DNA of 64,000 nucleotides, from the NCBI GenBank assembly GCA_965203885.1, contig OZ241920.1:3073476-3137475 (forward strand), given 5' to 3'. Position 1 is the first letter of the stretch, and every line of letters begins with the position of its first letter. The translations under genes were made by a program, and so were the position numbers. A model generated the notes under the pieces. It was not told the DNA's origin, searched no databases, and saw only the letters and a program-made list of their open reading frames with translations. Positions 1-54,869 of this stretch are shown piece after piece. Source of the stretch: a bacterium (GTDB lineage Bacteria; JAAXHH01).

Positions 1-141
1 GTGTCGCAGGCGCAGATGGTCCTGCCGCCTCCAGGCATGGTGGTTGTGCTCGGTCCGTGTGATGAAATCGTTCGCGCCGGTCCCGGAGCGTGCAGCAAAG
101 ATGCATCGACTACACCGAAGCCGACTTGACTATCTTCTTTA

Positions 142-456
142 CTATCCATCAATGACGCCTAATAACTTCAGTAAACTCCAGAGATTCATATAACCGGCAA
201 AAACCGCCGCTATTATCGCGGAGTGTTTAATGAAAGGAATTTGATTGTCCCAATTTTTAAAACTACCCCAATAGCTTAGAATTAACAAATTTGCCAAAAC
301 TGTAATTGTGTAAACCGGATCTAGTCCGTACACGTACATCAGATCAAGAAACGATGCGGCTGAATCTTCTTGCAATTGACCGGGGTAGGACAGGATGTTC
401 CAAATTGATTCAAACACATCACTTATGGACATAATGGTACATTCGATACTTGTCAC
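142..456 (-). CDS. hypothetical small hydrophobic protein in AT-rich cassette; possible second immunity or orphan cassette ORF
   Basis: 104-aa ORF in a visibly AT-rich block (1-1200) that contrasts with the GC-rich rest of the window; hydrophobic stretches; no recognisable family. Confidence 0.3.
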   Translation of the reverse strand: MTSIECTIMSISDVFESIWNILSYPGQLQEDSAASFLDLMYVYGLDPVYTITVLANLLILSYWGSFKNWDNQIPFIKHSAIIAAVFAGYMNLWSLLKLLGVIDG

Positions 457-862
457 CCTGCCCTCTCCCTGTTCGTATTACCGATCGGCAAAAGAAAAAC
501 CGGTAGCTTTCTCATGATCCAGTAGCCTCTCATTGTTTCGAGGCAAACGCCAGCAATCGGTTTCTGAACTACTTGCCATCAAACGAGTGTGAGGAAAGAG
601 GACACATGTTTGAACTTTCGCCTATCTGGATGTCTCATTTTATGGAGCCTGCACATCGGGGGAGTCGTGATAACTGAAGTCAATTATACCCACAATCCGT
701 AGCAGGCTCAACAAGCTGAAAAAAGCACTACCACACACTATAGTGGCTTGATAGTGATAACACCACTTTCTCAGAATACGTCATCATGTACGAGGACCGT
801 GTGCCCATAACATGATAAAGTCAGTTACACAAAATCCGTGACAGACCCGACAGACCCCAAAC

Positions 863-1114
863 TTAAAGCCGCACTAACCTAAGATGGTTTATCAAAATGT
901 CTCGATCATGCCCTTGCTTCTCTTCAGTTAACTCATCACCTGCCCACGAAGGAGTCATCAAATGATCATGATTCGGTACTTTGCCCTGCCTTAATAGTTT
1001 CAGCCTATACTCCAAAAGCTCAAGGCCTTCTTCATCAAAGCAGACAACGACTTCATCTATCTCCCAATCTGCAGTATTGCATTCCTTGCTAGGTGTTACT
1101 TCGACGGTTAGCAT
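863..1114 (-). CDS. putative immunity protein for the adjacent RHS C-terminal toxin
   Basis: 83-aa acidic ORF immediately downstream (same strand) of the RHS C-terminal tip, AT-rich like the toxin tip; the position matches polymorphic-toxin/immunity architecture. Confidence 0.35.
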   Translation of the reverse strand: MLTVEVTPSKECNTADWEIDEVVVCFDEEGLELLEYRLKLLRQGKVPNHDHLMTPSWAGDELTEEKQGHDRDILINHLRLVRL

Positions 1115-1200
1115 ATTGTCCTCATTCTCCTGTAAAGTACTTTTTCTTTTCTAAAGGTCCTCTGTAACGTTTGTACCGATTGACATCGACATGAGTTGGT

Positions 1201-1593
1201 TCACCAGATCTGTTGTTTACATCTATGTGAAATGAGCGACCCGTTTAGCGTCGTGGTTCGGCTGGCAACCTTTAGTCCTTTAGTTACTACTTTCCACAGT
1301 ATCCTCCCATCCGGATCCACATATTTCAGCGGATTATTGGCGGTATAGGCATACGGGCTGATCCCCGGGTACTCATTCTGCATGGAATCCGGCCGCAGGA
1401 ACCTGCCCGTGTCGTTAGCGTACGACCTTTCCAGCATATAGTCAAGACGGGACTCGGCGTCTCTCTCGTGGCCGGTATACCGGAACCTGGTGGCGTCGGT
1501 GCCGCGCTCCTGGTGCCATCGCGCTCCTGTTCGGCCCTCCAAGCACCGCCGTCCAGGTCCGACGCTCGGCCGCTCGCCTGGTCGAGACCGCAT
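1201..1593 (-). pseudogene. orphan/truncated RHS (YD-repeat) protein fragment: end of RHS repeat-associated core plus variable C-terminal toxin tip
   Basis: Translation contains 'RYTGHERDAESRLDYMLERSYANDTGRFLRPD' (the conserved RHS-core 'RYTGKExD...YYxARYYDPxxGRF' region) and 'NNPLKYVDPDGR' (the DPxG[RL] core boundary), followed by a short non-conserved C-terminal tail. The ORF has no upstream YD-repeat region. GC drops from genome-like in the core-encoding part to AT-rich in the tip. Confidence 0.6.
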
Positions 1594-1987
1594 TCCTGAT
1601 CGCTCGCTCGCGGAGTGGATATATCATTTCAGATTTTTATGTTGATTCTTATATTGATCAATATTGACCATATATATTTTCACGTTTTTTCATAATACCG
1701 CCATATACCGCCCGCCGCGCTATACGGCCGGAGACGCTGAACGGCCGCTCATCACGCTCTCTCGTCACGACCGCAGACACTGGCCGCCCACGCCGACCGC
1801 GACATACAGCCGCAGACACCGGCCGACCACTCGTCACGGCGCCAGGCACTGGCCGCCCCGCGACGCGGACCCCTCGCCACGACACCTTGACCCCCTGCCG
1901 TTCTACTGTTATATTTCGAAGTAATTCGTTCCGGTACGTTTCCACTCCGCTTCAAGACCGTAGGATTTGCCCGAAAGAAGGATATCT

Positions 1988-2755
1988 ATGCCCGCCAACC
2001 TGCTTGCGTGCCGAACGGCAAGTTACGGAAAGTTCAGCGATGCCGCCTGGACCCATCTGCCCACGACGGGCGTGCGCCACGTCGAGATCAACGCCCCCGC
2101 GCCGGACGAGGTGGACCAGGTCAGGGCCCGGCTCGCGCGTCACGGGCTGTCGGCCAGCAGCCTGCAGTGCCCGGTGGAGATCGAACACGAAGACGCGGAC
2201 GCGCGGCTGACCCCCCACCTGGAGGCCGCGGCGGCCCTGGGCGCCGGCCTGCTCTTCGTGAGCGTCCAGGCCGGTGAGCTCGACAAGAAGGTGGCTTACG
2301 AACGGCTGCACCGCTGCGGCGTCAAGGCCGCCGGATACGGGATCACCATCGGAATGGAGACCCATCCCGACCTGATCACCAACGCGGCCGTCGCCCTGGA
2401 GACCATGCGCGGCGTCGACCACCCCAACGTCCGCGTGAACTACGACACGGCCAACGTCCACTACTACAACCGGGACGTGGACCACGTCGACGAGATGGAA
2501 AAGGTCATCGACTACATCGGCAGCATGCATCTCAAGGATACCGACGGCGGATACAGGACCTGGTGCTTCCCGACCTTCGGCGAGGGAATCGTCGATTTCA
2601 GGAAGGTCTTCGACCGGTTGAACGCCCACGGGTTCTACGGGCCGTTCACCATGGAGATCGAAGGCGTGGAAGGCGAATCGCTCGACGAAGAAGCGACCTG
2701 CCGGCGCGTGGCGGACTCGGTGGCGCACCTGCGCAGCGTCGGGTGCGACGTGTAG
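1988..2755 (+). CDS. sugar phosphate isomerase/epimerase (xylose isomerase-like TIM barrel)
   Basis: ORF 1967-2755; second ATG at 1988 is preceded by aagaagga (RBS-like); typical TIM-barrel isomerase sequence (HVEIN..., IGMETHP..., NYDTANV...HLKD). Confidence 0.75.
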   Translation: MPANLLACRTASYGKFSDAAWTHLPTTGVRHVEINAPAPDEVDQVRARLARHGLSASSLQCPVEIEHEDADARLTPHLEAAAALGAGLLFVSVQAGELDKKVAYERLHRCGVKAAGYGITIGMETHPDLITNAAVALETMRGVDHPNVRVNYDTANVHYYNRDVDHVDEMEKVIDYIGSMHLKDTDGGYRTWCFPTFGEGIVDFRKVFDRLNAHGFYGPFTMEIEGVEGESLDEEATCRRVADSVAHLRSVGCDV

Positions 2756-2769
2756 GGGACGGGGCGTCC

Positions 2770-3303
2770 ATGGCTGAATCACAGCTCCGGATGGTGCGGC
2801 CCGGCCTGGACGATCTTCCCGGGATGGAAGTGCCGGAAGGATACGGACTGAGGACCTACCGGCCCGGCGACGAAGCGGCCTGGTGCGAGATCATGAACAC
2901 GGGCATCGGGACGGGCTGGACGGCGGAGAAGTGCCGCGGGGAGTTGACGGAACGGGATCCGTTCATGCCGGACGGCTGTTTCTTCGCGACGCGCGCGGGG
3001 GAAGCCGTGGCCACGGCCTGCGCATACGACGTGCGGCCCGAGGGCGTCAACGCGGCGCAGGTGCACATGGTCTGCGCGAAACCCGCCCACCGGGGGCGGG
3101 GCCTGGGCCGTCTCGTGACCCTGGCCGTGCTTCATTTCATGCGGGAGCAGGGCTACGCGGCCGCCTTTCTGGGCACGGACGATTTCCGCGTGCCGGCCGT
3201 CAGGACCTATCTCGGGCTGGGATTCATACCGGACTATATCGAGGAAAGCCACCGGGCGCGCTGGTCCGCCGTTCTGGCGAAAATCGGCGGACAGCCGGTC
3301 TGA
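2770..3303 (+). CDS. GNAT family N-acetyltransferase
   Basis: In-frame ATG at 2770 within ORF 2563-3303 (upstream part overlaps the previous gene); 'AQVHMVCAKPAHRGRGLGRLVT' acetyl-CoA binding motif (R/Q-x-x-G-x-G/A). Confidence 0.75.
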   Translation: MAESQLRMVRPGLDDLPGMEVPEGYGLRTYRPGDEAAWCEIMNTGIGTGWTAEKCRGELTERDPFMPDGCFFATRAGEAVATACAYDVRPEGVNAAQVHMVCAKPAHRGRGLGRLVTLAVLHFMREQGYAAAFLGTDDFRVPAVRTYLGLGFIPDYIEESHRARWSAVLAKIGGQPV

Positions 3304-3345
3304 CCGCGGCGGCCTGACCGCGGCGGCCTGAAATCACCATTTTAT

Positions 3346-4245
3346 ATGAGGACGATCCACATGCACCGCTTAGTACGCCGTATATTCTGCCGCGCAACCC
3401 GTCCCGCGATCGAGGCGGCCCGTCCCGCGATCGAGGCAGCCCGTCCCGCATTCGAGGCGGCCCGTCCCGCGATCGAGGCGGCCCGTCCCGCGATCAAGGC
3501 GGCCTTCACCGTCCTGGCTGTCCTGGCCGTCCTGGCCTTCCTGTCGCGGACGAGCCCGGCCAGCGCCCAGGAGAGCGCGCCAGCCGTGGACGTGCCCCCC
3601 GTCTTCATCACCGGGATCGGCATCCTCGGCGGATTCCCGGCGGGCGAGTTCGGCGAGAACGTCACGAACCCGGGGGTCGGCATATCCGGATTCATGGGCT
3701 ACATGATCCCCCGGACGCCGGCCGTGATCGGCCTGGACCTGGGCTACCTGATCTACGGCCACGAGCGGCGCAAGGAGCAATTCAGCTTGACGATACCCGA
3801 CGTCCTCGTCGACGTGGTCACCGAGAACAACATCTTCAAGATGAACGCCTTTCTCCGCCTGCAGACCGATACCGATCCCCTGCGTTTCTACGTTGAAGGC
3901 GTCGTCGGCTTCAACTACCTGTTCACCAGCACGACGATCGAGGAAAGCGACCGGATCAGCGGCCACGACGTCGCCAGTTCCAGGAACCTCGAAGATTTCG
4001 CCTTTACCAAGGGCGTGGGCGGCGGGGTGCTGATCGAACTGTGGCGCAGCGATGAGCGGACGCCGCAGAACCGCTCCCTGCGGACCGTGTCCCTTGATTT
4101 CCGGATGCGCTACCATGACGGTTCCGAGGCCGATTACCTGAGGCGGGGCGATATCGTCCGCAAGTCGGGTTCGGCCGAGCTCAACATAACCAAGTCGACC
4201 ACCGACCTCATCACGGCCCATCTCGGCGTGGCGATAGACTTCTAG
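3346..4245 (+). CDS. outer-membrane beta-barrel protein with N-terminal tandem heptad repeats (alternative start 3361)
   Basis: Signal-like 'FTVLAVLAVLAFLSRTSPASAQE'; alternating amphipathic beta-strands; C-terminal '...GVAIDF' aromatic terminus typical of OMP barrels; N-terminal (RPAIEAA)x5. Confidence 0.6.
   Translation: MRTIHMHRLVRRIFCRATRPAIEAARPAIEAARPAFEAARPAIEAARPAIKAAFTVLAVLAVLAFLSRTSPASAQESAPAVDVPPVFITGIGILGGFPAGEFGENVTNPGVGISGFMGYMIPRTPAVIGLDLGYLIYGHERRKEQFSLTIPDVLVDVVTENNIFKMNAFLRLQTDTDPLRFYVEGVVGFNYLFTSTTIEESDRISGHDVASSRNLEDFAFTKGVGGGVLIELWRSDERTPQNRSLRTVSLDFRMRYHDGSEADYLRRGDIVRKSGSAELNITKSTTDLITAHLGVAIDF
3399..3503 (+). repeat. 21-bp tandem repeat x5 (ccgtcccgcgatcgaggcggc), in frame within the 5' end of the OMP gene
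   Basis: Five near-identical 21-bp units read directly from the sequence; encodes RPAIEAA heptads. Confidence 0.9.
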
Positions 4246-4314: not shown

Positions 4315-5715
4315 ATGATCCAGGACGATTTCAAAATCGAGAGCATTCCAGAGGCGGAGTGGCAGGTATCCCGCCGATCGTTCATGAAACGGCTGGCCGG
4401 CGGGATCGCCGCGGGCGGCGCCCTGGTCTACGGCTCCTCCGCCGCGTCCTCAGCATTCGCGTCCCCGGCCTCGGCCTCGCCGGGCACCGCATCCTTCGAC
4501 GCCGCGTCCTCCGCCGCCGCGTCCCCGGTCGAGGACCTGGAGACGGCGGTATCGGGCGAAGACCCCGGCGGCGAACGGTACTGGCACGCGGTCCGGAGCC
4601 AGTTCCTCCTCCGGGACAACCTGGCGCTGATGAACGCCGCCAATCTCTGCCCGTCGCCCTATCCGGTGATGGAATCGGTCTTCAAGTACACCCGGGACCT
4701 GGATTACGACGCGTCCTTCCACAACCGGACCAAGTACCGGCAGATCCGGGAGGAGACCCGCGAGAAGATGGCCCGGCTCCTGGGCGCCCATTCCGACGAG
4801 ATCGCGCTGGTGCGGAACACGAGCGAGGCCAACAACTGCATCAGCACCGGCTATCACCTCGGGGCGGGCGACGAGGTGCTCCTCTCCGACCTGAACCATC
4901 CCTCGAACAACCAGGCGTGGCAGGTCAAGGCCCGGCGCTTCGGGTTCAGGATCAACTACGTGTCGGTCCCCGTGGTGCCCCGGAGCGAGGACGAGATCTT
5001 CGAGGCCTTCGAGCGGGCGTACACCCCGGCGACGAAGGTCATGTCCCTCACCCACGTGTCCAACCGCACCGGGCTGACCATGCCGGCCAAGAGGCTGTGC
5101 GCGGCGGCGCGGGCCCGGGGTGTTTTCTCCCTCGTGGACGGCGCCCAGAGCTTCGGCGCCCTGAAGATCAATCTCGCGGACATGGGATGCGACGCCTACA
5201 CGGGCAGCGCGCACAAGTGGTTCATGGGCCCGAAGGAGGTCGGCGTGCTCTACGTCCGCAAGGACAGCCAGGACGCCGTCTGGCCCAGCATCGTGAGCGC
5301 CGGCTGGCGGGACGAAGTGGAGGGAAGCGCGCGGAAGTACGAGGTCCTCGGACAGCGCGACGACGCGGCGCTGACGGCCACCGGACGGGGCGTCGATTTC
5401 CACGAGAAGATCGGGGCCGGCCGCGTGGAGGCCCGCATGCGCCAGGTGGCCACGGCCATCAAGGAAGGCCTTTCCGGGCTGCCCGGCGTTACGCTTTCCA
5501 CGTCCATGGAGCCCGCCCTCTCCGCCGGGGTCGTCATCTTCAAGCCGGGCGATCTCGATCCGCGCAAGGTCTTCGACCGGCTCTACGCGAAGTACCACGT
5601 CGCCGGCGCGGGCATGGGCCCCAACGTCCGCCTTTCGCCTCATATCTACAACACGCTCGACGAGGCGGACCGCGCCGTCACCGCCGTCGCGGAGATCCTG
5701 AGGGACGGAGTCTGA
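4315..5715 (+). CDS. class V (IscS/isopenicillin-N-epimerase-like) PLP-dependent aminotransferase with twin-arginine signal
   Basis: Start 'MIQDDFKIESIPEAEWQVSRRSFMKRLAGGIAAGGALVYG' carries an RRxFxK Tat motif plus hydrophobic h-region and a Ser/Ala-rich linker; 'SAHKWFMGPKEVGVLYV' PLP-lysine region; long class-V fold. Confidence 0.8.
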   Translation: MIQDDFKIESIPEAEWQVSRRSFMKRLAGGIAAGGALVYGSSAASSAFASPASASPGTASFDAASSAAASPVEDLETAVSGEDPGGERYWHAVRSQFLLRDNLALMNAANLCPSPYPVMESVFKYTRDLDYDASFHNRTKYRQIREETREKMARLLGAHSDEIALVRNTSEANNCISTGYHLGAGDEVLLSDLNHPSNNQAWQVKARRFGFRINYVSVPVVPRSEDEIFEAFERAYTPATKVMSLTHVSNRTGLTMPAKRLCAAARARGVFSLVDGAQSFGALKINLADMGCDAYTGSAHKWFMGPKEVGVLYVRKDSQDAVWPSIVSAGWRDEVEGSARKYEVLGQRDDAALTATGRGVDFHEKIGAGRVEARMRQVATAIKEGLSGLPGVTLSTSMEPALSAGVVIFKPGDLDPRKVFDRLYAKYHVAGAGMGPNVRLSPHIYNTLDEADRAVTAVAEILRDGV

Positions 5716-5753
5716 GCCTTACCGCCGGTGCAGGTCCACCGCCTGACGGGCCC

Positions 5754-7199
5754 ATGTCAAAGCGAAACGCCGCGGTCATCCTCTATGCCGCGCTGCTCGC
5801 CGCGAGCGCGCTCCAGGTCCTCCAGTCGATCGTCGTCGCCCATTTCTTCGACCCGGAATACCTGGCCCCCTACCGGTACGGCATCCTGGCCGCCGGGTTC
5901 GCGTACCTCTTCGCCGCCGGGCTGATCGAGAGCGTCTTCTACTTCATCTCGGGGAAATACGCCCCGGAAGCCCGCAGGTACGCGGGGAACACCCTGGCCG
6001 GCTGCGTGGCGGTCTTCCTGGCCCTCCTCCTGCTGTTCCACCTGCTCGTCAAGCCCTACCTGCTCGTCCACACGGAGCTGGGACCCTATCTCCGGGAGGT
6101 GGGCGCCTACCTCCTGATCGCCCTGTTCCTCTTCGTGAACGTGGCCGCCCACAACGTCCTGGTGGGGACCGGCCGCACGGCCGCCGCCAGCGGGCTCCGC
6201 CTGTTTCAGTACCTGCTGCGCGTCTCGGCCGTCGCCGCCGCGCTTTTCTCCGGGCAGATCTCGTCCATCTACGGACTCATCGTGCTGATCGTGCTCCTGG
6301 AGGCGTTCCAGACGCTCCTCTACGGACTCGTCCTCCTCGGCGGGAAACAGCTGTCCTTCCGGCTACGGGGCATCGAGGCCGGGGCCCAGTACCGCTACGC
6401 CCTGGGACTGGGCGTCGCCGGGTTCGTTCCCTTCATCAACGCCAGCCTGGACAAGATCATGATCAGCGCCTTCCTGGGCGCCTCGAGCTTCGCGGTCTAC
6501 AGCGTGTCGGCCATCGAGCTGCCCATCGCCGGCATCCTGATGAGCGTGTTCGGGTCGGTGCTCTTCTCCACCTACGTGGGACACGCCGAAAGCGGCGATC
6601 ATCGGTCCATGGCGGCCCTGTGGCGCAAGTGCTCGACCTGCGGCATGATCGCCATCGTCCCCGCGGGGATCTTCGTCTTTCTCTTCTCCGACGTGCTGTA
6701 CCGGCTCATCCTCCCGGACGCCTACTTCGAGGGACACCGGGTCCTGGGTATCTACGCGCTGCTCCTCCTGCTCCGCTTCAACAGCCCGGACGTGCTCGCC
6801 CGGGCCCTCAACCGGAACGCCGTCATCGTCCAGGCCGCCGCCGCCTCGCTGATCGTCAACGTGGCGGGCAACCTGGTCTTCATCCCGGCCTTCGGCCTCT
6901 GGGGCGCGGCCCTGGCCACACTGTGCGGCACAGCCGCCGGATGGATCTACTACCTGGCCCGGTACGCCCGGCTGCTGAAGCAACCCGTCAGCGCGCTCCT
7001 CCCCTGGAAGCCCTACGTCCTCCTGACCGCCATTTCGGCGGTCTTCTTCGGCGCGGCCAGGTGGACCCTCGACCGGGTCGAGGTCAGCGCCGCCCTGGCC
7101 GTCCTGGGCATGGCGGCCTATCTCTGGTACGCCTTCCGGCTGCTGGACCGGCCGGAGAAGGAGTACGTGCGGGGCCTGGTGAGAAGGATAGGATTGTAA
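5754..7199 (+). CDS. polysaccharide biosynthesis protein / Wzx-like flippase (MOP superfamily)
   Basis: In-frame ATG 5754 inside track ORF 4359-7199 (the 5' part of that ORF is out-of-frame read-through over the aminotransferase); ~12 predicted TM helices, typical Wzx/PST layout. Confidence 0.7.
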   Translation: MSKRNAAVILYAALLAASALQVLQSIVVAHFFDPEYLAPYRYGILAAGFAYLFAAGLIESVFYFISGKYAPEARRYAGNTLAGCVAVFLALLLLFHLLVKPYLLVHTELGPYLREVGAYLLIALFLFVNVAAHNVLVGTGRTAAASGLRLFQYLLRVSAVAAALFSGQISSIYGLIVLIVLLEAFQTLLYGLVLLGGKQLSFRLRGIEAGAQYRYALGLGVAGFVPFINASLDKIMISAFLGASSFAVYSVSAIELPIAGILMSVFGSVLFSTYVGHAESGDHRSMAALWRKCSTCGMIAIVPAGIFVFLFSDVLYRLILPDAYFEGHRVLGIYALLLLLRFNSPDVLARALNRNAVIVQAAAASLIVNVAGNLVFIPAFGLWGAALATLCGTAAGWIYYLARYARLLKQPVSALLPWKPYVLLTAISAVFFGAARWTLDRVEVSAALAVLGMAAYLWYAFRLLDRPEKEYVRGLVRRIGL

Positions 7200-7339
7200 T
7201 TTTTTCGCAGGTTTTGTATTTAATCTCCGACTGGTACTATATTGACAGTGCATTTGAATGAATGTATTGGTCGAATATCGCCATAGGACCTTCATCGGGC
7301 CGCCCGTACAAATCCCCTTTCAATTCCTGGAACCGAAAA

Positions 7340-7510
7340 CATGTCTACGAGCAACAACAAGAAAGCGCAGATAAAGGTTCACAGCACCGTATTCGGCGTA
7401 CAGCGTATAGACAGAAACGAGTTCACCAGAAGCAAGAAGGCCATGGACACCATCCGTAAATTCATGGAACGTGATCACAAGTTTCAGAAACGAGCGCACG
7501 GAAAGTGAGT
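7340..7510 (+). CDS. small basic hypothetical protein (56 aa), low-GC
   Basis: ATG at 7340, stop TGA 7508-7510, 3 bp before the next ATG (7513); below the ORF-track size cutoff; translation MSTSNNKKAQIKVHSTVFGVQRIDRNEFTRSKKAMDTIRKFMERDHKFQKRAHGK. Confidence 0.25.
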
Positions 7511-7512
7511 AG

Positions 7513-8253
7513 ATGTCCTTCAGTATTTTCGCACTACCCCTCCTTGCCGGCTACCTGTTCCTAATCTGCTGTCACAATTACCGTTACGAAATCCTCAGAG
7601 CATCCGGCTACCATGTTTTTTTGAAATCCGGCATCGCCGGACTGGCTCTGTTCGTGTTGTCATACCTTCAAGTTCGCATGCTATCGTTATACTCACTTGA
7701 TTACATATGGACGTTCTTCAATCTCAATGAAATCTCAGCAACTTGCTTTTTAAGTATGCTTACGGGCGTTTGGAGTGCGCTCATTTTCAATCTGTTCAGA
7801 GACAAAGACTCCTCAATACGAAAGAGCGCACATGAAAACGGAGCATTTACAGAAATCTTGTTAAGAGATGCAATGCGTAATGTAGATCTGGTTTCTATCA
7901 CGACCAAAAGCAGGAAGTATTATGTTGGGTTTGTTTTTGAGACCGGACTGGAAAGCAAAGGCGGTGAAGGAGATTTATCGCTTATTCCTGTGGCGAGTGG
8001 ATACAGGGAAGAAGATTCATTGAATCTCAATCTCAATCTGAACTACATTTCCGTATACAGGGACGTTTATAAAGACGAGATTAACTCCTTTGTAGAGAAT
8101 GAATTGAAAATTGAGGAAACAGAACTGATCGAGTTCCTTTCAATGCTTGTAGAACCGTATTTTCGAGTGGCTGTACCCAAGACGGAAGTCGCTTCCGTCA
8201 GGTATTTCGATTATGACATTTACGACAGATTTCACTCGGACGACCTTAAATAG
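7513..8253 (+). CDS. hypothetical membrane protein (three N-terminal TM helices plus ~150-aa soluble domain), low-GC, no recognisable family
   Basis: 246-aa ORF in a ~1.1-kb AT-rich insertion between GC-rich flippase and GT2 genes; hydrophobic helices at ~5-25, 38-58, 75-95. Confidence 0.5.
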   Translation: MSFSIFALPLLAGYLFLICCHNYRYEILRASGYHVFLKSGIAGLALFVLSYLQVRMLSLYSLDYIWTFFNLNEISATCFLSMLTGVWSALIFNLFRDKDSSIRKSAHENGAFTEILLRDAMRNVDLVSITTKSRKYYVGFVFETGLESKGGEGDLSLIPVASGYREEDSLNLNLNLNYISVYRDVYKDEINSFVENELKIEETELIEFLSMLVEPYFRVAVPKTEVASVRYFDYDIYDRFHSDDLK

Positions 8254-8292
8254 GTAAGCGAATCTGTAATTACCCTGATTTCGTATACGGAA

Positions 8293-9216
8293 ATGAACCC
8301 TGCCGAACCCCACGTAACCATCGTCATACTCAACCTGAACCGGGAATCGGACACGCTGGAGTGCCTGGAGTCCGTCGCGCGCATGACCTACCCGTCCTTT
8401 TCGGTCGTGGTCGTGGACAACGGATCGACCGACGGGTCGCCGGACGCCATCGAGGGCTGGGGACGGGAGAACCTGCCCCTGGCACTCATTCGCAACGCCG
8501 ATAACCGGGGTTTCGCCGGGGGCGGCAACCAGGGCATGCGCCACGCGCTGGCGGCCGGCACCGATTACGTGTTCCTGTTGAACGACGATACGGTGGTAGA
8601 TCCCGACGTATTGGATATCCTCGTTCGAGCGGCGGAACGTTCCGGCGATATCGGCATGGTGGGTCCCAAGATATACCAGTATGGAAAGGGCAAGATACTC
8701 GACTCGGCGGGTACGCGTACGATACCGTGGCTGGCCCAGGGGTTCCTCGTCGGCCACGGGGAAGAGGACCGGGGCCAGTACGATGCCACGGCCGAGATGC
8801 CCTACATCACGGGGACGGCGCTCCTGGTCAAGCGCGCCGTGCTGGAGCAGGTCGGACTGATGGATGAGGACTATTTTTGCTACTTCGATGACTTCGACTG
8901 GGGAATGCGGACGCGGGAAGCCGGTTACAAACTCTATCTGGAGCCCAGGGCGGTGATCCGCCACAAGGGGACGCAGACCATCGGTTTAAACAGTCCATTC
9001 TATATGCTTCACATGGTGCGCAGCAGGATTCTGTTCGCGAGAAAACACGTGCCGCACCTGCCGTTTCTGTTCGCGTTCCTGCCTTACCTTTTTCTGTATC
9101 GGTATCTACGTCCGCTCGCTATCTTGGTCATCCGCCGCAGGTGGACCCACCTGGGCGCGCTCCATCGCGGGATCCGGGAGGGATTCGCCGCCCGGATCAC
9201 GTCGGGCAACGGTTGA
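8293..9216 (+). CDS. family 2 glycosyltransferase (GT-A fold)
   Basis: 'VTIVILNLNRESDTLECLESV...VVVDNGSTDGS' and 'LLNDDTVVDPD' DxD region, typical GT2. Confidence 0.8.
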   Translation: MNPAEPHVTIVILNLNRESDTLECLESVARMTYPSFSVVVVDNGSTDGSPDAIEGWGRENLPLALIRNADNRGFAGGGNQGMRHALAAGTDYVFLLNDDTVVDPDVLDILVRAAERSGDIGMVGPKIYQYGKGKILDSAGTRTIPWLAQGFLVGHGEEDRGQYDATAEMPYITGTALLVKRAVLEQVGLMDEDYFCYFDDFDWGMRTREAGYKLYLEPRAVIRHKGTQTIGLNSPFYMLHMVRSRILFARKHVPHLPFLFAFLPYLFLYRYLRPLAILVIRRRWTHLGALHRGIREGFAARITSGNG

Positions 9217-9374: not shown

Positions 9375-11870
9375 ATGGCGAAGAAACAACCACATACGCG
9401 ACCCGATCGGCGCAGAACCGGCGGAGCGGACAGAACCCGCGGCTCGGCCAGGGACCGGCGGGAACGCTCGGCGCGCACGGAACGCACGGCACGAACCTTG
9501 CATCCGTACGTCCAGGATGCCTTGTTCTGCCTGGTGATCGCGGTGTTGGCCATCTTCGTTTACCGCGGCTATATCATCGAAGGCAAGATGGACATCCGGC
9601 CAGATTTCATTGGCCAGGCCATTCCCTTCGACCGCTTCGCGCAGGACTTCGCAAGCCGGTCCGGCGAAACGCCCCTCTGGTACCCCCACATCTTCGGCGG
9701 CATGCCCTTCCAGGCCAGCGGCACCTATCACCATCTGCAGTACAGCTTCGAAGCCCTGGTCAACGCCGTCCTGCCGGACGGGCTCATCGGCGCGCTGCAC
9801 GGCCGCTTCTTCTTCCACCTGCTCCTCGGCGCGGTCTCCATGTTCTTCCTGGCGCGGGCCCTGTCGCTCTCGCGGCCCGCGTCTTTCGTCGCCGCGGCGG
9901 CCTTCGTGTTCTCCACCCACATGATGGCCACGGAACACGCGAACCGGTTCATCTGCTTCATGCACGTCCCCCTCGTCTTCCTGGCCGCCTACCGCGTATT
10001 CGATCGCGGCAGGGTGTTCGACATGGTATTGCTCGGCGGCGCCTTCGGCTCGCAGTTGTGTTCCTTTCATCCCCAGATCGCCTTCTACACGGCCATGCTG
10101 ATCGGCCTGTACGCCGCGTACGCCGTGATCAACGACCTGCGGGACCGGGCGCCCGCCGGCATCATGCTGAGGAAATCCGGTCTTTTCGCGGGCGGAATCG
10201 TCCTGGCCCTGGCCGTCGCGGCGGTGCTCGTGCTGCCCATGCAGGAATACGCGCAGTATTCCGTCCGGGGCCTCTCCGTCGGCGGCAGCGGCGTCAACGC
10301 CCCCTTCGCCACGAGCTGGTCGTTCCCGCCCATCGAAGTGCTGACCTTCCTCATCCCATCCTTCGCCGGGTTCGGCGGGCTCTTCTACTGGGGGGACATG
10401 CCCTTCACGGACTTTCCCAACTACCTGGGCGTCGTCGTTTTCGTGCTGGCGGTATCGGGCGTAATCCTTCGCCCTTCGCGCATGACCGCCTTCCTCGTCC
10501 TGGCGGCCGCGCTGGCGCTCCTGGTCTCCTTCGGGCGGCACCTGCCCCCCGTATCCTACGTCATGCTCCACTTCGTCCCCTTCTTCGCCAAGTTCCGCGC
10601 GCCGGTCATGATCCTGGTGATCGTGCAGTTCGCGGCCGCCCTGCTGGCGGGATACGGCGTGCACGCGCTGATCGAACGGATCCGCGCGGGCCGGGACAGT
10701 CTGAGGCGCTTCGCGACGCGGCTGTGCTGCGTGGCCGGCGGGGTGCTCCTGCTGGTCCTGGTCCTGACCGTGTTCGAGTCCTCCTTCCAGTCCTTCATGA
10801 CGGGCGTCTACGTACAGGCGGACGCGGCCCACGGTTCGCGCGCGGGCCTCCTGGACAACGCGGATTACCACGCCCGGCTCAACGCCATGCGTTTCGGCCT
10901 GCTCATGGCCGACCTGTGGCTCATGACGCTGTTCCTCTGCGCGGCGGCCGCGCTGCTCTTCGCCACCCGCAAGGCGGGCCCGGCGCTGTTTGCCGCCGGC
11001 GTGAGCGCACTCCTCGCCGTCGACCTGCTGCTCGTGGCCTCGCGGGTCGTGAACCCCGAAGACGATCCCGCGCGGATCCAGGCCCATTACGCCGCCCGCG
11101 AAAACGAGATCGTGAAGGCCCTGGAGGAAGACACCGGCCTGTACCGCATCCTCCCGCTGTCCGAGTTCTCGTCCAACGAGTACGGATACTTCGGCATCTC
11201 CAGCATCGGCGGCTACCACGCCGCCAAACTCGGTATCTACCAGGAACTCATGGACCGGGTGGGGTTCAGCTCCTTTCCGGTTTTGAACATGCTCAATACC
11301 CGTTACCTTGTGTCCCGGCAGCCTCTACCGGAATCCGGGCTCTCGCCCGTGGCCGAGTCCGACGGCGGATACCTCTACCGGAACGACGCCGCGCTGCCGC
11401 GGGCCTTCCTGGTGGACAGCGTGCAAGTCGTCGCCGGGAAGGACGCCGTCTTCGAAGCGTTGAACGAGCCCGGGTTCGAACCCGGCGAGTACGCGATCCT
11501 GGAGCAGCCCGTCCGGGAGGCGTTGGGGCCGCTGGGCGAATCCTCCGTGGAGATCACGGCGCACACGCCCCATCGCATCGAGGTGGCGGTGGAGGCCGAC
11601 GCGCCGGGCCTGCTGGTGCTCAGCGAGATCTACTATCCGGCCGGGTGGAGCGCCACGATCGACGGCGAGCCCGCCGAGATATACAAGACCAACTACGTGC
11701 TGCGCTCCGTGGCCGTCCCGGCGGGCCGTCATGAAGTCGTCATGACCTTTGCCCCGTCGAGCTTTGCCACGGGACTCCTCGTGAGCCGGATCGCCGGCAC
11801 GCTGGTCCTGGCCGGGTTGATCGCCGCGGGCGCGATGCGCATCAGAAAGCGCCTGAAGGCCGGGGCCTGA
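9375..11870 (+). CDS. yfhO: YfhO family membrane glycosyltransferase (GT-C fold)
   Basis: 831 aa; many N-terminal TM helices (e.g. 'LWYPHIFGGMPFQASGTYHHL', 'FFLARALSL'), large C-terminal extracytoplasmic domain ending in a TM anchor; adjacent GtrB-like GT2 reproduces the known CsbB-YfhO / GtrB-GT-C pairing. Confidence 0.75.
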   Translation: MAKKQPHTRPDRRRTGGADRTRGSARDRRERSARTERTARTLHPYVQDALFCLVIAVLAIFVYRGYIIEGKMDIRPDFIGQAIPFDRFAQDFASRSGETPLWYPHIFGGMPFQASGTYHHLQYSFEALVNAVLPDGLIGALHGRFFFHLLLGAVSMFFLARALSLSRPASFVAAAAFVFSTHMMATEHANRFICFMHVPLVFLAAYRVFDRGRVFDMVLLGGAFGSQLCSFHPQIAFYTAMLIGLYAAYAVINDLRDRAPAGIMLRKSGLFAGGIVLALAVAAVLVLPMQEYAQYSVRGLSVGGSGVNAPFATSWSFPPIEVLTFLIPSFAGFGGLFYWGDMPFTDFPNYLGVVVFVLAVSGVILRPSRMTAFLVLAAALALLVSFGRHLPPVSYVMLHFVPFFAKFRAPVMILVIVQFAAALLAGYGVHALIERIRAGRDSLRRFATRLCCVAGGVLLLVLVLTVFESSFQSFMTGVYVQADAAHGSRAGLLDNADYHARLNAMRFGLLMADLWLMTLFLCAAAALLFATRKAGPALFAAGVSALLAVDLLLVASRVVNPEDDPARIQAHYAARENEIVKALEEDTGLYRILPLSEFSSNEYGYFGISSIGGYHAAKLGIYQELMDRVGFSSFPVLNMLNTRYLVSRQPLPESGLSPVAESDGGYLYRNDAALPRAFLVDSVQVVAGKDAVFEALNEPGFEPGEYAILEQPVREALGPLGESSVEITAHTPHRIEVAVEADAPGLLVLSEIYYPAGWSATIDGEPAEIYKTNYVLRSVAVPAGRHEVVMTFAPSSFATGLLVSRIAGTLVLAGLIAAGAMRIRKRLKAGA

Positions 11871-11948
11871 CAACGTAGACGCCGGACGCCGAAACCGCCT
11901 GAAGGCCGCGGCCTGACGCGAAGACAACTGACACCAAAGACGCAAACC

Positions 11949-12662
11949 ATGAAACCGCTGATCATCATCCCCACCTACAACGAACTGGAGAACATCCGGC
12001 GCCTGCTGCCCGAGCTGATGGCGCTGGATCCGGATATACGCGTGCTCGTGGTGGACGACAACTCGCCGGACGGGACGGGGAAGCTGGCCGACGAGCTGGC
12101 CGCGGGGAACGAGCGGATCAGCGTCCTCCACCGGCCCGGCAAGCTCGGCCTTGGATCGGCTTACGTGGCGGGTTTCAGGTACGCGGTCCGGCAGGACGTG
12201 GACTGCGTCTTCGAGATGGACGCGGACTTCTCCCACGACCCCGCCATGATACCCAGGTTCCTGGAGGAGATCGCGTCCTGCGACGTGGTGATCGGGTCCC
12301 GGTACGTCAGCGGCATCAACGTGGTGAACTGGCCCATGTCCCGGCTGCTGCTCAGCTATTTCGCCAACATCTACACCCGCCTGGTCACGGGCATGACGAT
12401 CCGGGACGCCACCTCGGGATACAAGTGCTTCCGCCGCGAAGTGCTGGAGAACATCGCGCTGGACGACGTCCGGTCCGACGGGTACGCCTTCCAGATCGAG
12501 ATGAATTTCAGGTGCTGGCGAAAGGGGTATCGCCTGCGTGAAATCCCCATTATCTTCGTAGACCGGCGTTCGGGCACGTCGAAACTATCCCGGGGCGTGA
12601 TCAGCGAGGCGGTCTGGATCCCCTGGTGGCTGCGCCTGCAGCGCCTGCTGCGCCGCATGTAG
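11949..12662 (+). CDS. polyprenyl-phosphate sugar synthase, GtrB/CsbB/Dpm1-like GT2
   Basis: 'IIIPTYNELENI...VLVVDDNSPDGTG' and 'EMDADFSHDP' (DxD / Dpm1 signature); soluble ~237 aa. Confidence 0.85.
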   Translation: MKPLIIIPTYNELENIRRLLPELMALDPDIRVLVVDDNSPDGTGKLADELAAGNERISVLHRPGKLGLGSAYVAGFRYAVRQDVDCVFEMDADFSHDPAMIPRFLEEIASCDVVIGSRYVSGINVVNWPMSRLLLSYFANIYTRLVTGMTIRDATSGYKCFRREVLENIALDDVRSDGYAFQIEMNFRCWRKGYRLREIPIIFVDRRSGTSKLSRGVISEAVWIPWWLRLQRLLRRM

Positions 12663-49375: not shown

Positions 49376-49495
49376 TCCCCCGGCAGCGTCCTACTCTCCC
49401 ACAAGGTCACCCAAGCAGTACCATCGGCGCAAGAGGGCTTAACTACTCTGTTCGGAATGGGAAGAGGTGTTTCCCCTCCGCTATCGCCACCGGAA
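49376..49495 (-). rRNA. rrf: 5S ribosomal RNA
   Basis: Reverse complement aligns to bacterial 5S (e.g. 'ggcagcgtcctactctccc', 'accatcggcgc'); boundaries +/-5 nt. Confidence 0.9.
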
Positions 49496-49546
49496 GAAAT
49501 GGGGTGCAATTACAAGGAATGAGAGAACGACGACGTATCATGGAGC

Positions 49547-52615
<3,069 letters not shown>

Positions 52616-52750
52616 AACAAATGCTACTGTGCTTGAGTGCTCCGATGTTACAACGCCGTTCCCGTCATTCCTATGTAATTGTCAAAGAGCGGGCGCCGTC
52701 TTCGTCGTGCTGGCCGTACCGGTCGTACTGGTCCTGCCGACGGTGCCCCA

Positions 52751-52826
52751 GTGGAGATAACCGGGATCGAACCGGTGACCTCCGGCTTGCAAAGCCGGCG
52801 CTCTCCCAGCTGAGCTATATCCCCGG
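52751..52826 (-). tRNA. tRNA-Ala (anticodon TGC)
   Basis: Reverse complement 'ggggatatagctcagctgggagagcgccggctttgcaagccggaggtcaccggttcgatcccggttatctcca'; anticodon loop cTTTGCAa. Confidence 0.93.
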
Positions 52827-52833
52827 CTTTCGG

Positions 52834-52911
<78 letters not shown>

Positions 52912-52998
52912 CCGTTGCTTCAGGCCCCCCCGCTCCAAAAAACATGACAGCGTGCACGCCGTTCGCCGGACAAGTCGACCTCGAGTTGCGATAACTCT

Positions 52999-54555
<1,557 letters not shown>

Positions 54556-54869
54556 ATAAAAGAAAAGTCCAATCTTGAATTGCATCTGTGTGAACCCCCC
54601 GGACGGATCCGGAGAGCCCTTGCCAGACGACTAGGACATGCACGCTGCCATGTTTTCAAAGAGCGTAATCTTACCGCAACCCGCGCAAGATACACAGCCG
54701 GGTATATGAAGTCAACAGGTTTCTTTATTTTTAATTCCTGTTGACCAAACAGCCGTCGTACAGCGGGATTCGGGCCCGAAACGGGGGTCCGAACCTGGGG
54801 CGGCAAACCGCGTTCCTCGCCGGGATTGCGCGGCCGGTTCGGGCCGATCAGGGGCCCCGCCGGGAGGCG

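What the first reader, a model, noticed from the sequence alone, without database searches (positions are those of the whole stretch)
1..1660. Orphan RHS C-terminal toxin tip with candidate immunity cassette in an AT-rich block
ORF 1201-1593 (-) encodes only the last ~100 residues of an RHS repeat-associated core (RYTGHERDAESRLDYMLERSYANDTGRF...NNPLKYVDPDGR) followed by a short, unrelated C-terminal tail. It lacks the >1000-aa YD-repeat body. Its 5' (core-encoding) part is GC-rich like the host, while the tip and the two downstream small ORFs (863-1114, 142-456) are markedly AT-rich. This is the signature of an orphan rhs-CT/immunity module retained for recombinational toxin switching, and the genome presumably has a full-length rhs elsewhere. 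The toxin tip is very short (~35 aa after DPDGR), so it may be a truncated remnant; the immunity ORF has no recognisable family.
Basis: partly seen in the sequence, partly recalled or inferred. Interest (0 to 1): 0.55.

Follow-up and report, generated by a model that had tools for sequence, protein, structure and literature searches.

The report
Decayed orphan RHS toxin, immunity genes kept
This is the wreck of a spare bacterial RHS toxin cassette: the toxin is truncated, internally deleted and frameshifted, but two small immunity genes next to it are intact, an ordinary and well-known kind of locus.

Summary
ORF 1201-1593(-) carries the last ~67 residues of an RHS repeat-associated core (TIGR03696, E 5e-18). 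No YD-repeat body exists anywhere in the 64-kb window. The block 101-1300 is the most AT-rich stretch of the window (43% vs 63.5% GC).

The interpretation needs correcting in three ways.
- The tip is a dead toxin, not just a short one. Against three intact relatives it lacks 1 nt (1256|1255) and 301 nt (1247|1246). This removes the linker and most of an Ntox37-like predicted RNase domain and frameshifts the remainder.
- The 83-aa ORF does have a family. It is an Imm32 immunity protein, the published partner of Ntox37, and is identical in protein sequence to one that follows an intact toxin on another contig.
- The 104-aa ORF is a second orphan immunity gene. It belongs to a small unnamed family that always lies about 20 nt after RHS genes with a Gly/Ala-rich tip. 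Here that toxin is gone.

The block is a mosaic of at least five RHS-array fragments. It most likely serves as orphan immunity rather than as a toxin reserve. This is a new member of a known kind, of low to moderate interest. The source genome was not found, so whether it has a full-length rhs elsewhere is untested.

The parts
1303..1519 (-). 5'-truncated RHS repeat-associated core remnant, ending in the DPDGR motif
   Evidence: TIGR03696 E 5.1e-18, profile positions 12-75 of 76. blastn 78-89% identity to the core regions of many RHS genes in Gemmatimonadota loci, with homology starting at 1519/1505.
1520..1593 (-). Non-RHS 5' extension of the mechanical ORF (ATG at 1593). Probably not a real N-terminus.
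   Evidence: Residues 1-30 are matched by none of 361 RHS relatives. The alignment shows homology lost upstream of about 1510-1519.
1258..1302 (-). First 15 codons of the pre-toxin linker (ILWKVVTKGLKVASR). This is the last authentic in-frame part of the tip.
   Evidence: Matches L001, P0001, P0002 and P0003. Followed by the 1-nt deletion at 1256|1255.
1246..1256 (-). Lesion zone: a 1-nt deletion (1256|1255) and a 301-nt deletion (1247|1246) relative to intact relatives
   Evidence: Global alignments to L001, L004 and L002 give identical breakpoints; blastn agrees.
1122..1246 (-). 3' remnant of the Ntox37-like toxin domain. In the ancestral frame it reads TGRSFHIDVNNRSGEPTHVDVNRYKRYRGPLEKKKYFTGE*, which is out of frame with the core.
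   Evidence: frame 2. 91.5% DNA identity to L001 405-831. The invariant HID and HVDVNR motifs of the family are in alignments A2 and A4.
863..1114 (-). Intact Imm32-family immunity gene (83 aa)
   Evidence: PF15566 E 2.8e-4. 69 homologues, most with PF15566. Identical protein on L001 directly after an intact toxin. dN/dS 0 to 0.18.
781..848 (-). Short sequence shared with the DNA next to IS256-type (Transposase_mut) genes in relatives. Probably an IS-end remnant.
   Evidence: 89.7% identity to L002 1852-1919, at the 3' end of a Transposase_mut gene. Also present downstream of the Imm32 genes of L002 and L004.
489..725 (-). Fragment of another RHS-array module: intergenic DNA plus the first ~15 codons of a 188-aa lipoprotein-like immunity gene (ATG at 533). 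It contains a promoter-like site at 711-683.
   Evidence: 91.6% identity to L006 11367-11603. Promoter-like TTGAGC-17-TATAAT, nearly conserved in L006. ATG position.
142..456 (-). Intact 104-aa orphan immunity gene of an unnamed family (all-helical, two hydrophobic segments). Its cognate Gly/Ala-rich RHS tip is deleted.
   Evidence: 16 homologues, all 104-105 aa. The gene lies about 20 nt after the RHS stop codon in L080-L084. dN/dS 0.09-0.39. AF2 model helical, pLDDT 73.
457..496 (-). Last few codons of the Gly/Ala-rich toxin tip plus the ribosome-binding site of the 104-aa gene
   Evidence: 97.5% identity to L085 102-456, and homology to L080-L084 from 487/485.
1..93 (-). Weak RHS-body-like pieces in two frames running off the window edge. 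Possibly the start of a further, also damaged, orphan fragment.
   Evidence: ARSGTGANDFITRTEHN matches L006 RHS 783-799 (E 0.003), and MPGGGRTICACD matches 926-941 (E 0.29). blastn of window 44-1 hits RHS bodies in L002 and L003.

Best explanation
The AT-rich block 1-1519 on the minus strand is the decayed end of an rhs orphan array in a GC-rich bacterium, probably of the Gemmatimonadota.

**Module 1.**
- It was once a complete 'RHS core, helical pre-toxin linker, Ntox37-like toxin, Imm32' cassette.
- It has lost everything upstream of the last ~67 core residues.
- It has also lost 1 nt and 301 nt inside the tip, so no toxin can be made.
- Its Imm32 gene is untouched.

**Downstream of module 1.**
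- An IS-end scrap.
- A 237-bp scrap of another module: its promoter region and the first codons of a lipoprotein-type immunity gene.
- A second intact immunity gene of 104 aa, whose Gly/Ala-rich, probably membrane-active, RHS tip has been removed down to its last few codons.
- RHS-body scraps at the window edge.

**Inferred function.** The locus no longer arms the cell. It still supplies two immunity proteins that would neutralise Ntox37-type and Gly-rich-type RHS tips delivered by related neighbours.

**Shown:** the anatomy, the lesions, the family assignments and the conserved toxin-immunity gene order in relatives.

**Inferred:** expression of the immunity genes and their protective role.
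For: - **Core.** Profile match.
- **Intact relatives of the same cassette.** L001 and L002, L003, L004 inside RHS arrays with full bodies.
- **Lesions.** Identical breakpoints against three relatives. The remnant is readable in the ancestral frame.
- **Toxin family.** Homologues are named 'toxin 37' by their sources. The Ntox37-Imm32-RHS association is published (PMC3482391).
- **Imm32.**
- **104-aa family.** It sits in the immunity position in five independent RHS contexts.
- **Mosaic segments.**
- **Purifying selection on both immunity genes.** Imm32 shows 5 synonymous and 0 non-synonymous changes against L001, with dN/dS 0.06-0.18 against L004 and L002. The 104-aa gene gives 0.09-0.39.
- **Recurrence.** A near-identical relative (L085) has also collapsed the toxin in front of the 104-aa gene, leaving DPDG plus 29 aa. 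P0004 is a frameshifted copy of the Ntox37-like tip.
- **Precedent.** Protection by orphan immunity genes is an established concept for Rhs and T6SS systems (PMC10539506, PMC12247911; seen as title and abstract only).
Against: - No expression data exist. The promoter-like and terminator-like sites are no more frequent than in shuffled sequence.
- The dN/dS values mostly reflect selection before the toxin was lost, so continued selection in this lineage is not proven.
- The source genome and its reads were not available. The deletions could not be checked against raw data, and the array beyond position 1 is unseen.
- The Pfam Ntox37 and Imm32 models match only below their gathering scores.
Confidence: 0.72

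Rival explanations
1. This is a functional orphan toxin/immunity reserve. [quoted passage not shown]
For: About 215 bp of core sequence with 78-89% identity to other RHS cores remains. Orphan displacement is documented in Salmonella (PMC3967940; title and abstract only). Relatives keep intact orphans of this same cassette (L003).
Against: The tip lacks 302 nt, including the linker and roughly two thirds of the toxin domain, and it is frameshifted. A swap would produce an RHS with no toxin. No full-length rhs is present in the 64-kb window.
Confidence: 0.08
2. This is an assembly or sequencing artefact. The locus would really be an intact RHS gene or array that was collapsed or mis-joined at repeated RHS sequences.
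For: RHS arrays are repetitive and the junctions fall at module boundaries. Several related long-read contigs show RHS genes split into adjacent ORFs (L002, L004), as indel errors would produce. The deletion junction was not found in any other public contig.
Against: Five different junctions would all have to be artefacts. The 5' flank is a unique housekeeping-type gene with its own intergenic region. A clean 301-nt loss is not a base-calling error. Both small genes are perfectly intact. An independent contig (L085) shows the same kind of toxin collapse.
Confidence: 0.08
3. This is inert genomic debris. The whole block would be a dying array, and the two immunity ORFs are intact only because decay is recent, so they confer no benefit.
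For: Every toxin-side element is broken. Promoter evidence is at chance level. Divergence from the nearest relatives is small (dS 0.05-0.10), so there has been little time for disabling mutations to accumulate.
Against: Two independent immunity genes are intact while every toxin sequence next to them is destroyed. The same pattern recurs in L085, and P0004 is a further frameshifted copy of this tip. This suggests selection against toxins and for immunity. The changes against the closest relatives are 8 synonymous to 1 non-synonymous.
Confidence: 0.2

Closest known systems
Orphan rhs-CT/rhsI modules of Enterobacteriaceae (Salmonella Typhimurium LT2, E. coli; PMC3967940, PMC3150448)
   Same: A fragment holding only the 3' end of the conserved RHS core, a variable AT-rich tip and an immunity gene immediately downstream. 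It lacks the YD shell. Relatives carry the same cassette downstream of full-length rhs genes (L003, L006).
   Different: Here the toxin part is destroyed by 1-nt and 301-nt deletions. No main rhs gene lies upstream; the neighbour is a divergent TIM-barrel gene. The host is a GC-rich, probably Gemmatimonadota, lineage rather than a proteobacterium.
Ntox37 / Imm32 polymorphic toxin pair (Zhang et al. 2012, PMC3482391; Pfam PF15535 and PF15566)
   Same: The gene order is RHS, then toxin, then an ~80-aa immunity protein. The toxin has a conserved E, basic residue and Hx[DH] signature (SYHID and HVDVNR). Homologues are named 'toxin 37' and 'Imm32 family immunity protein' by public sources.
   Different: This clade scores below the Pfam gathering thresholds. 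The window retains only the last ~40 codons of the toxin, out of frame. The RNase activity of Ntox37 is a prediction, not an experimental result.
Orphan immunity genes and polyimmunity loci (PMC3482391 section 39; PMC10539506; PMC12247911)
   Same: Immunity genes without a working cognate toxin, in the same orientation, from unrelated families. They plausibly protect against non-kin toxins.
   Different: There are only two genes, separated by toxin, IS and module scraps. It is therefore a decaying toxin array rather than a compact, toxin-free polyimmunity operon as defined by Zhang et al.
Small membrane immunity proteins of membrane-active toxins (for example the two-TM families Imm-CdiI and Imm17 in Table 3 of PMC3482391)
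   Same: The 104-aa protein is small and helical, has two hydrophobic segments, and follows a Gly/Ala-rich hydrophobic toxin tip.
   Different: There is no sequence or fold match to any named family. Its hydropathy peaks (1.3-1.4) are modest, and membrane insertion was not tested.

Membership tests
RHS repeat-associated core (TIGR03696) | Profile match above the curated cut-off, ending in the DPxG[x] cleavage motif | tested here: met
   65.4 bits against a cut-off of 32.5, E 5.1e-18, profile positions 12-75 of 76. The motif PLKYVDPDGR is present.
Full-length RHS/YD toxin | YD-repeat shell of more than 1000 aa upstream of the core | tested here: not met
   tblastn with four full-length RHS proteins against the whole window gives only 1503-1285. 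A divergent unrelated gene lies at 1967-2755.
Orphan rhs-CT/immunity module | Partial core, a variable tip and an adjacent immunity gene; homologous cassettes also found fused to full-length rhs genes | tested here: met
   In L002 and L003 the same tip lies in arrays with 2426-aa or fragmented RHS bodies, and Imm32 follows it.
Orphan rhs-CT/immunity module | An intact toxin-coding tip able to yield an active toxin after recombination | tested here: not met
   1-nt and 301-nt deletions with a frameshift.
Orphan rhs-CT/immunity module | Location downstream of a main rhs gene in the same genome | not testable with these tools
   None in the window. The source genome was not found.
Ntox37 (PF15535) | Pfam profile match at or above the gathering score | tested here: inconclusive
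   The intact relative L001 scores 13.6 bits, P0096 19.7 and P0071 19.3, against a cut-off of 27.8. All hit the same profile region. Sources name the homologues 'toxin 37'.
Ntox37 (PF15535) | Conserved E, [KR], Hx[DH] signature, and association with RHS and Imm32 (Zhang et al. 2012) | tested here: met
   E, H, D, V, N and R of ExxHVDVNR and the HID motif are invariant or nearly invariant in 30-54 homologues. Imm32 lies downstream. Table 2 of PMC3482391.
Ntox37 (PF15535) | RNase activity | not testable with these tools
   Only predicted in PMC3482391. There was no structural match to a solved nuclease.
Imm32 (PF15566) | Pfam profile match at or above the gathering score | tested here: inconclusive
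   The window protein scores 21.2 bits against a cut-off of 27, E 2.8e-4. Most of its 69 homologues (E down to 1e-48) carry a precomputed PF15566 hit.
Imm32 (PF15566) | Encoded immediately downstream of a polymorphic toxin gene (Ntox12, Ntox37 or Ntox7) | tested here: met
   8 nt after the toxin stop in L001 and 2 nt after it in L002. In the window it lies 7 nt after the stop of the ancestral-frame remnant.
Polyimmunity locus (sensu Zhang et al. 2012) | Tandem immunity genes never interrupted by toxin genes or cassettes, with short intergenic distances | tested here: not met
   The two immunity genes are 406 nt apart, separated by IS and module scraps, and are preceded by a toxin remnant.

The most novel reading that the evidence does not exclude
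Two linked readings remain open.
- The 104-aa helical protein and the ~210-aa Gly/Ala-rich RHS tip it always follows may be an undescribed membrane-targeting toxin/immunity pair.
- This lineage may repeatedly delete toxin domains while keeping the immunity genes. That pattern is seen twice in the window, once in L085 and probably in P0004. It would show rhs orphan arrays being converted stepwise into immunity-only loci.
Probability: 0.35. Interest if true: 0.45.

Novelty: new member of a known kind. Interest (0 to 1): 0.25.

Why it matters
It gives a base-pair-resolved example, outside the Proteobacteria, of how an rhs orphan cassette decays. The toxin is lost through truncation, an internal deletion and a frameshift, while the immunity genes stay intact. 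That fits the view that orphan immunity, not spare weaponry, is what selection keeps. It also flags a small unnamed immunity family and its Gly/Ala-rich RHS tip as candidates for a new toxin/immunity pair. Nothing here challenges current understanding.

Tried and rejected
- **Finding the source genome.**
  - Exact-protein look-ups of four window proteins failed.
  - The genome-contig scan gave only 74-88% relatives.
  - Two exact junction searches in metagenome contigs gave nothing.
  - The array left of position 1 and the rest of the genome therefore remain unseen.
- **Synteny.** The neighbouring window genes show no synteny with any of the 85 fetched loci.
- **Profile searches.** Pfam and NCBIfam found nothing for the 104-aa protein, the Gly/Ala-rich tip, the L006 188-aa immunity protein or the L006 toxin with a HELFGH motif.
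- **Fold searches.**
  - The Ntox37-like model (toxin domain pLDDT ~90) matched only Rhs cores through its N-terminal part.
  - The 104-aa model gave only non-significant globin-like hits.
- **Exhaustive HMMER search with the 104-aa protein.** It found 38 representatives, but the large multi-stretch hits look compositional.
- **Frameshifted full-length rhs.** Rejected.
- **Upstream ORF 1658-1945(-).** The 95-aa ORF has no family and overlaps a GC-rich imperfect repeat. I treat it as non-coding.
- **Microhomology.** No clear microhomology was seen at the 301-nt deletion ends.
Full report
**Observation**

The 130-aa ORF 1201-1593(-) matches the NCBIfam RHS repeat-associated core model TIGR03696. 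The match has E 5.1e-18 and 65.4 bits against a cut-off of 32.5, over residues 30-96 and profile positions 12-75 of 76. So the RHS assignment holds at profile level, but only about 67 core residues are present.

At the DNA level, clear homology to RHS genes from related loci begins at 1519-1505 and is lost upstream. None of 361 RHS relatives matches ORF residues 1-30. The ATG at 1593 is therefore probably an accident of the junction.

The composition contrast is real. Positions 1401-1600 are 60-71% GC and 101-1300 are 35-48%. The stretch 101-1300 is 43% GC, the lowest of all 1.2-kb windows in the 64 kb (mean 63.5%, sd 5.7).

**No hidden RHS body**

I ran four full-length RHS proteins from related loci by tblastn against all six frames of the whole window. 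They give one significant hit only, 1503-1285. Upstream of the fragment lie about 370 bp of non-coding DNA and then a divergent xylose-isomerase-like TIM-barrel gene at 1967-2755(+). The non-coding stretch consists of an AT-rich segment and a GC-rich imperfect repeat at 1718-1858. The reading 'full-length rhs with sequencing errors' is rejected.

**What the tip was**

- The 83-aa protein occurs with an identical sequence on an 852-bp ENA contig (L001). There it sits 8 nt after an uninterrupted gene end.
- That gene end reads ...NNPLKYVDPDGRILWKVVTKGLKVASRAYDAAKKGK...KGLGNPFKGKTPEQIDRMFRKKGYDPRGKNPLKGKGGYVNPKTGRSYHIDQRNRSGEPPHVDVNRSKRYRGPLEKKKYFTGE*.
- A database search with this tip found 167 relatives. 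Several are named 'toxin 37' or 'polymorphic toxin type 37 domain-containing protein' by NCBI, UniRef or JGI.
- The tip is modular. After DPDG comes a helical linker of about 90 aa, which is shared with proteins carrying other toxin domains (P0005 with PF15545, P0006 with PF15529). Then comes an ~80-aa domain with invariant G, S, D, E, H, D, V, N and R positions, including SYHID and HVDVNR.
- The current Pfam Ntox37 model matches this clade only below threshold, at 13.6-19.7 bits against 27.8. I therefore call the domain Ntox37-like.
- Zhang et al. 2012 list Ntox37 (all-beta; E, [KR], Hx[DH]; RHS repeats; immunity Imm32) among 'predicted metal-independent RNase toxins' (PMC3482391). That activity is a prediction.
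- An AlphaFold2 model of P0002 gives the toxin domain pLDDT of about 90 or more, as one helix plus five strands. Foldseek against the PDB found nothing significant beyond the Rhs core.

**The lesions**

Global alignments of window 1350-1111(-) to the intact genes in L001, L004 and L002 give the same blocks each time. The window lacks 1 nt at 1256|1255 and 301 nt at 1247|1246 (blastn).

- The authentic reading frame ends after ILWKVVTKGLKVASR.
- The next 18 residues of the ORF are out of frame.
- The surviving 3' piece (1246-1122) reads, in the ancestral frame, TGRSFHIDVNNRSGEPTHVDVNRYKRYRGPLEKKKYFTGE*.

The toxin has thus lost its delivery shell, most of its core, its linker and about two thirds of its catalytic domain. 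It is a pseudogene.

**The immunity gene of module 1**

ORF 863-1114(-) hits Pfam Imm32 (PF15566) at E 2.8e-4 and 21.2 bits, below the cut-off of 27. However, 69 homologues were found, down to E 1e-48. Most carry a precomputed PF15566 hit, and an 88%-identical one is named 'Imm32 family immunity protein [Gemmatimonadota bacterium]'. Imm32 is the published partner of Ntox37.

Substitution counts against relatives:

| Comparison | Synonymous | Non-synonymous | dN/dS |
|---|---|---|---|
| Imm32 gene vs L001 | 5 | 0 | 0 |
| Imm32 gene vs L004 | 12.0 | 3.0 | 0.06 |
| Imm32 gene vs L002 | 19.0 | 16.0 | 0.18 |

**The second small ORF**

- ORF 142-456(-) is a real gene family. It has 16 homologues, all 104-105 aa and 55-99% identical, with no Pfam or NCBIfam family.
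- In five independent contexts it starts about 20 nt after the stop of an RHS gene. These genes are 2387 and 2424 aa full-length proteins, a 652-aa orphan and two truncated contigs.
- After DPDG, the tips of those RHS genes are ~210-aa Gly/Ala-rich hydrophobic domains with no family.
- The protein is predicted all-helical (pLDDT 73). It has two moderately hydrophobic segments and no structural match. I read it as the immunity protein of a probably membrane-active tip. That reading is an inference.
- In the window only the last few codons of that tip survive (457-496).
- A 97.5%-identical Logan contig (L085) has DPDG followed by only 29 residues before the same gene. That is an independent collapse of this toxin.
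- dN/dS is 0.09 against L085 and 0.27-0.39 against more distant copies.

**The rest of the block**

- Window 848-781 matches DNA at the end of IS256-type transposase genes in L002. The same sequence lies downstream of Imm32 in L002 and L004.
- Window 725-489 is 91.6% identical to L006 11367-11603. In that Gemmatimonadota-like MAG chromosome, this is the region upstream of, and the first codons of, a duplicated 188-aa lipoprotein-like immunity gene within a classical array of a main rhs gene plus orphans.
- This segment carries a promoter-like TTGAGC-17-TATAAT at 711-683(-), nearly conserved in L006. Such sites are not enriched over shuffles.
- The truncated 26-codon ORF starting at 533(-) ends in a TGA that overlaps the GTG start of the 104-aa gene.
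- Window 93-1(-) has weak RHS-body similarity in two frames. This suggests a further damaged fragment running off the window edge.

**Interpretation**

The locus is the decayed upstream end of an rhs orphan array. Every toxin-side element is broken and both immunity genes are intact. The likely current function is orphan immunity against RHS tips of related strains. Orphan immunity is established for Rhs and T6SS systems (PMC10539506, PMC12247911, PMC3967940, PMC3150448; I saw these as titles and abstracts only). Expression and protection are inferred, not shown.

**Organism**

The organism is probably a member of the Gemmatimonadota, judging from the nearest RHS cores. This was not verified independently, although the window contains a full rRNA operon that could settle it.

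**Verdict**

- This is a new member of a known kind and of low to moderate interest.
- The only mildly novel elements are the unnamed 104-aa immunity family with its Gly/Ala-rich tip, and the recurrent pattern of toxin deletion with immunity retention.

Noticed in passing
window 49378-54560 (-): A complete rRNA operon (5S, 23S, two tRNAs in the spacer at 52752-52911, 16S). It explains the ORF-free, 55% GC stretch. The 16S could identify the organism, but no rRNA reference was available here.
   Followed up: partly
window 7100-8400: A second markedly AT-rich island (39-48% GC). It contains a 246-aa ORF (7513-8253, +) with no Pfam family, next to a family-2 glycosyltransferase (8293-9216). It follows a long ORF (4359-7199, +) whose C-terminal half is very hydrophobic and has no Pfam hit. 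It is possibly a horizontally acquired piece of a polysaccharide-synthesis cluster.
   Followed up: partly
window 3398-3504 (and 3296-3331, 3509-3543): A 21-nt tandem repeat of 5.1 copies at 91% identity. It encodes ARPAIEA heptads near the N-terminus of a 299-aa ORF (3346-4245, +) with no Pfam family.
   Followed up: no
window 1718-1858: Four imperfect copies of a ~29-nt GC-rich motif (CTCGTCACGRCSSCAGRCACTGGCCGCCC), found nowhere else in the window. They lie between the RHS remnant and the divergent TIM-barrel gene. A 32% GC stretch at 1601-1700 sits next to them. Function unknown.
   Followed up: partly
L080 816-7979, L081 707-7981, L082 6021-7979: RHS proteins whose tip after DPDG is a ~210-aa Gly/Ala-rich hydrophobic domain with no Pfam family, always followed by the 104-aa gene. 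This is a candidate undescribed membrane-active toxin/immunity pair.
   Followed up: partly
L085 1-456: In a 97.5%-identical relative, the RHS core end DPDG is joined to only 29 residues before the 104-aa gene. This is an independent internal collapse of that toxin.
   Followed up: yes
L006 10750-12125: The 188-aa lipoprotein-like immunity gene after a toxin with a HELFGH motif is present twice in tandem (10750-11316 and 11559-12125). L006 also shows orphan fragments that all start at the same RHS positions.
   Followed up: no
P0001-P0006; P0002 residues ~110-188: A ~90-aa helical linker between DPDG and the toxin (LWKVVTKGLKVA...DVFAIIDLATDQGD). It is shared by tips with different toxin domains (Ntox37-like, PF15545, PF15529) and has no Pfam hit in our scans. 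From memory it resembles a pre-toxin 'TG' type domain; that was not tested.
   Followed up: no
P0004 and P0124: P0004 is a frameshifted copy of the same Ntox37-like tip. An Imm32 homologue (P0124) has the same longest-contig length (435,322 bp). This is probably another case of a broken toxin with intact immunity, but adjacency was not verified.
   Followed up: no
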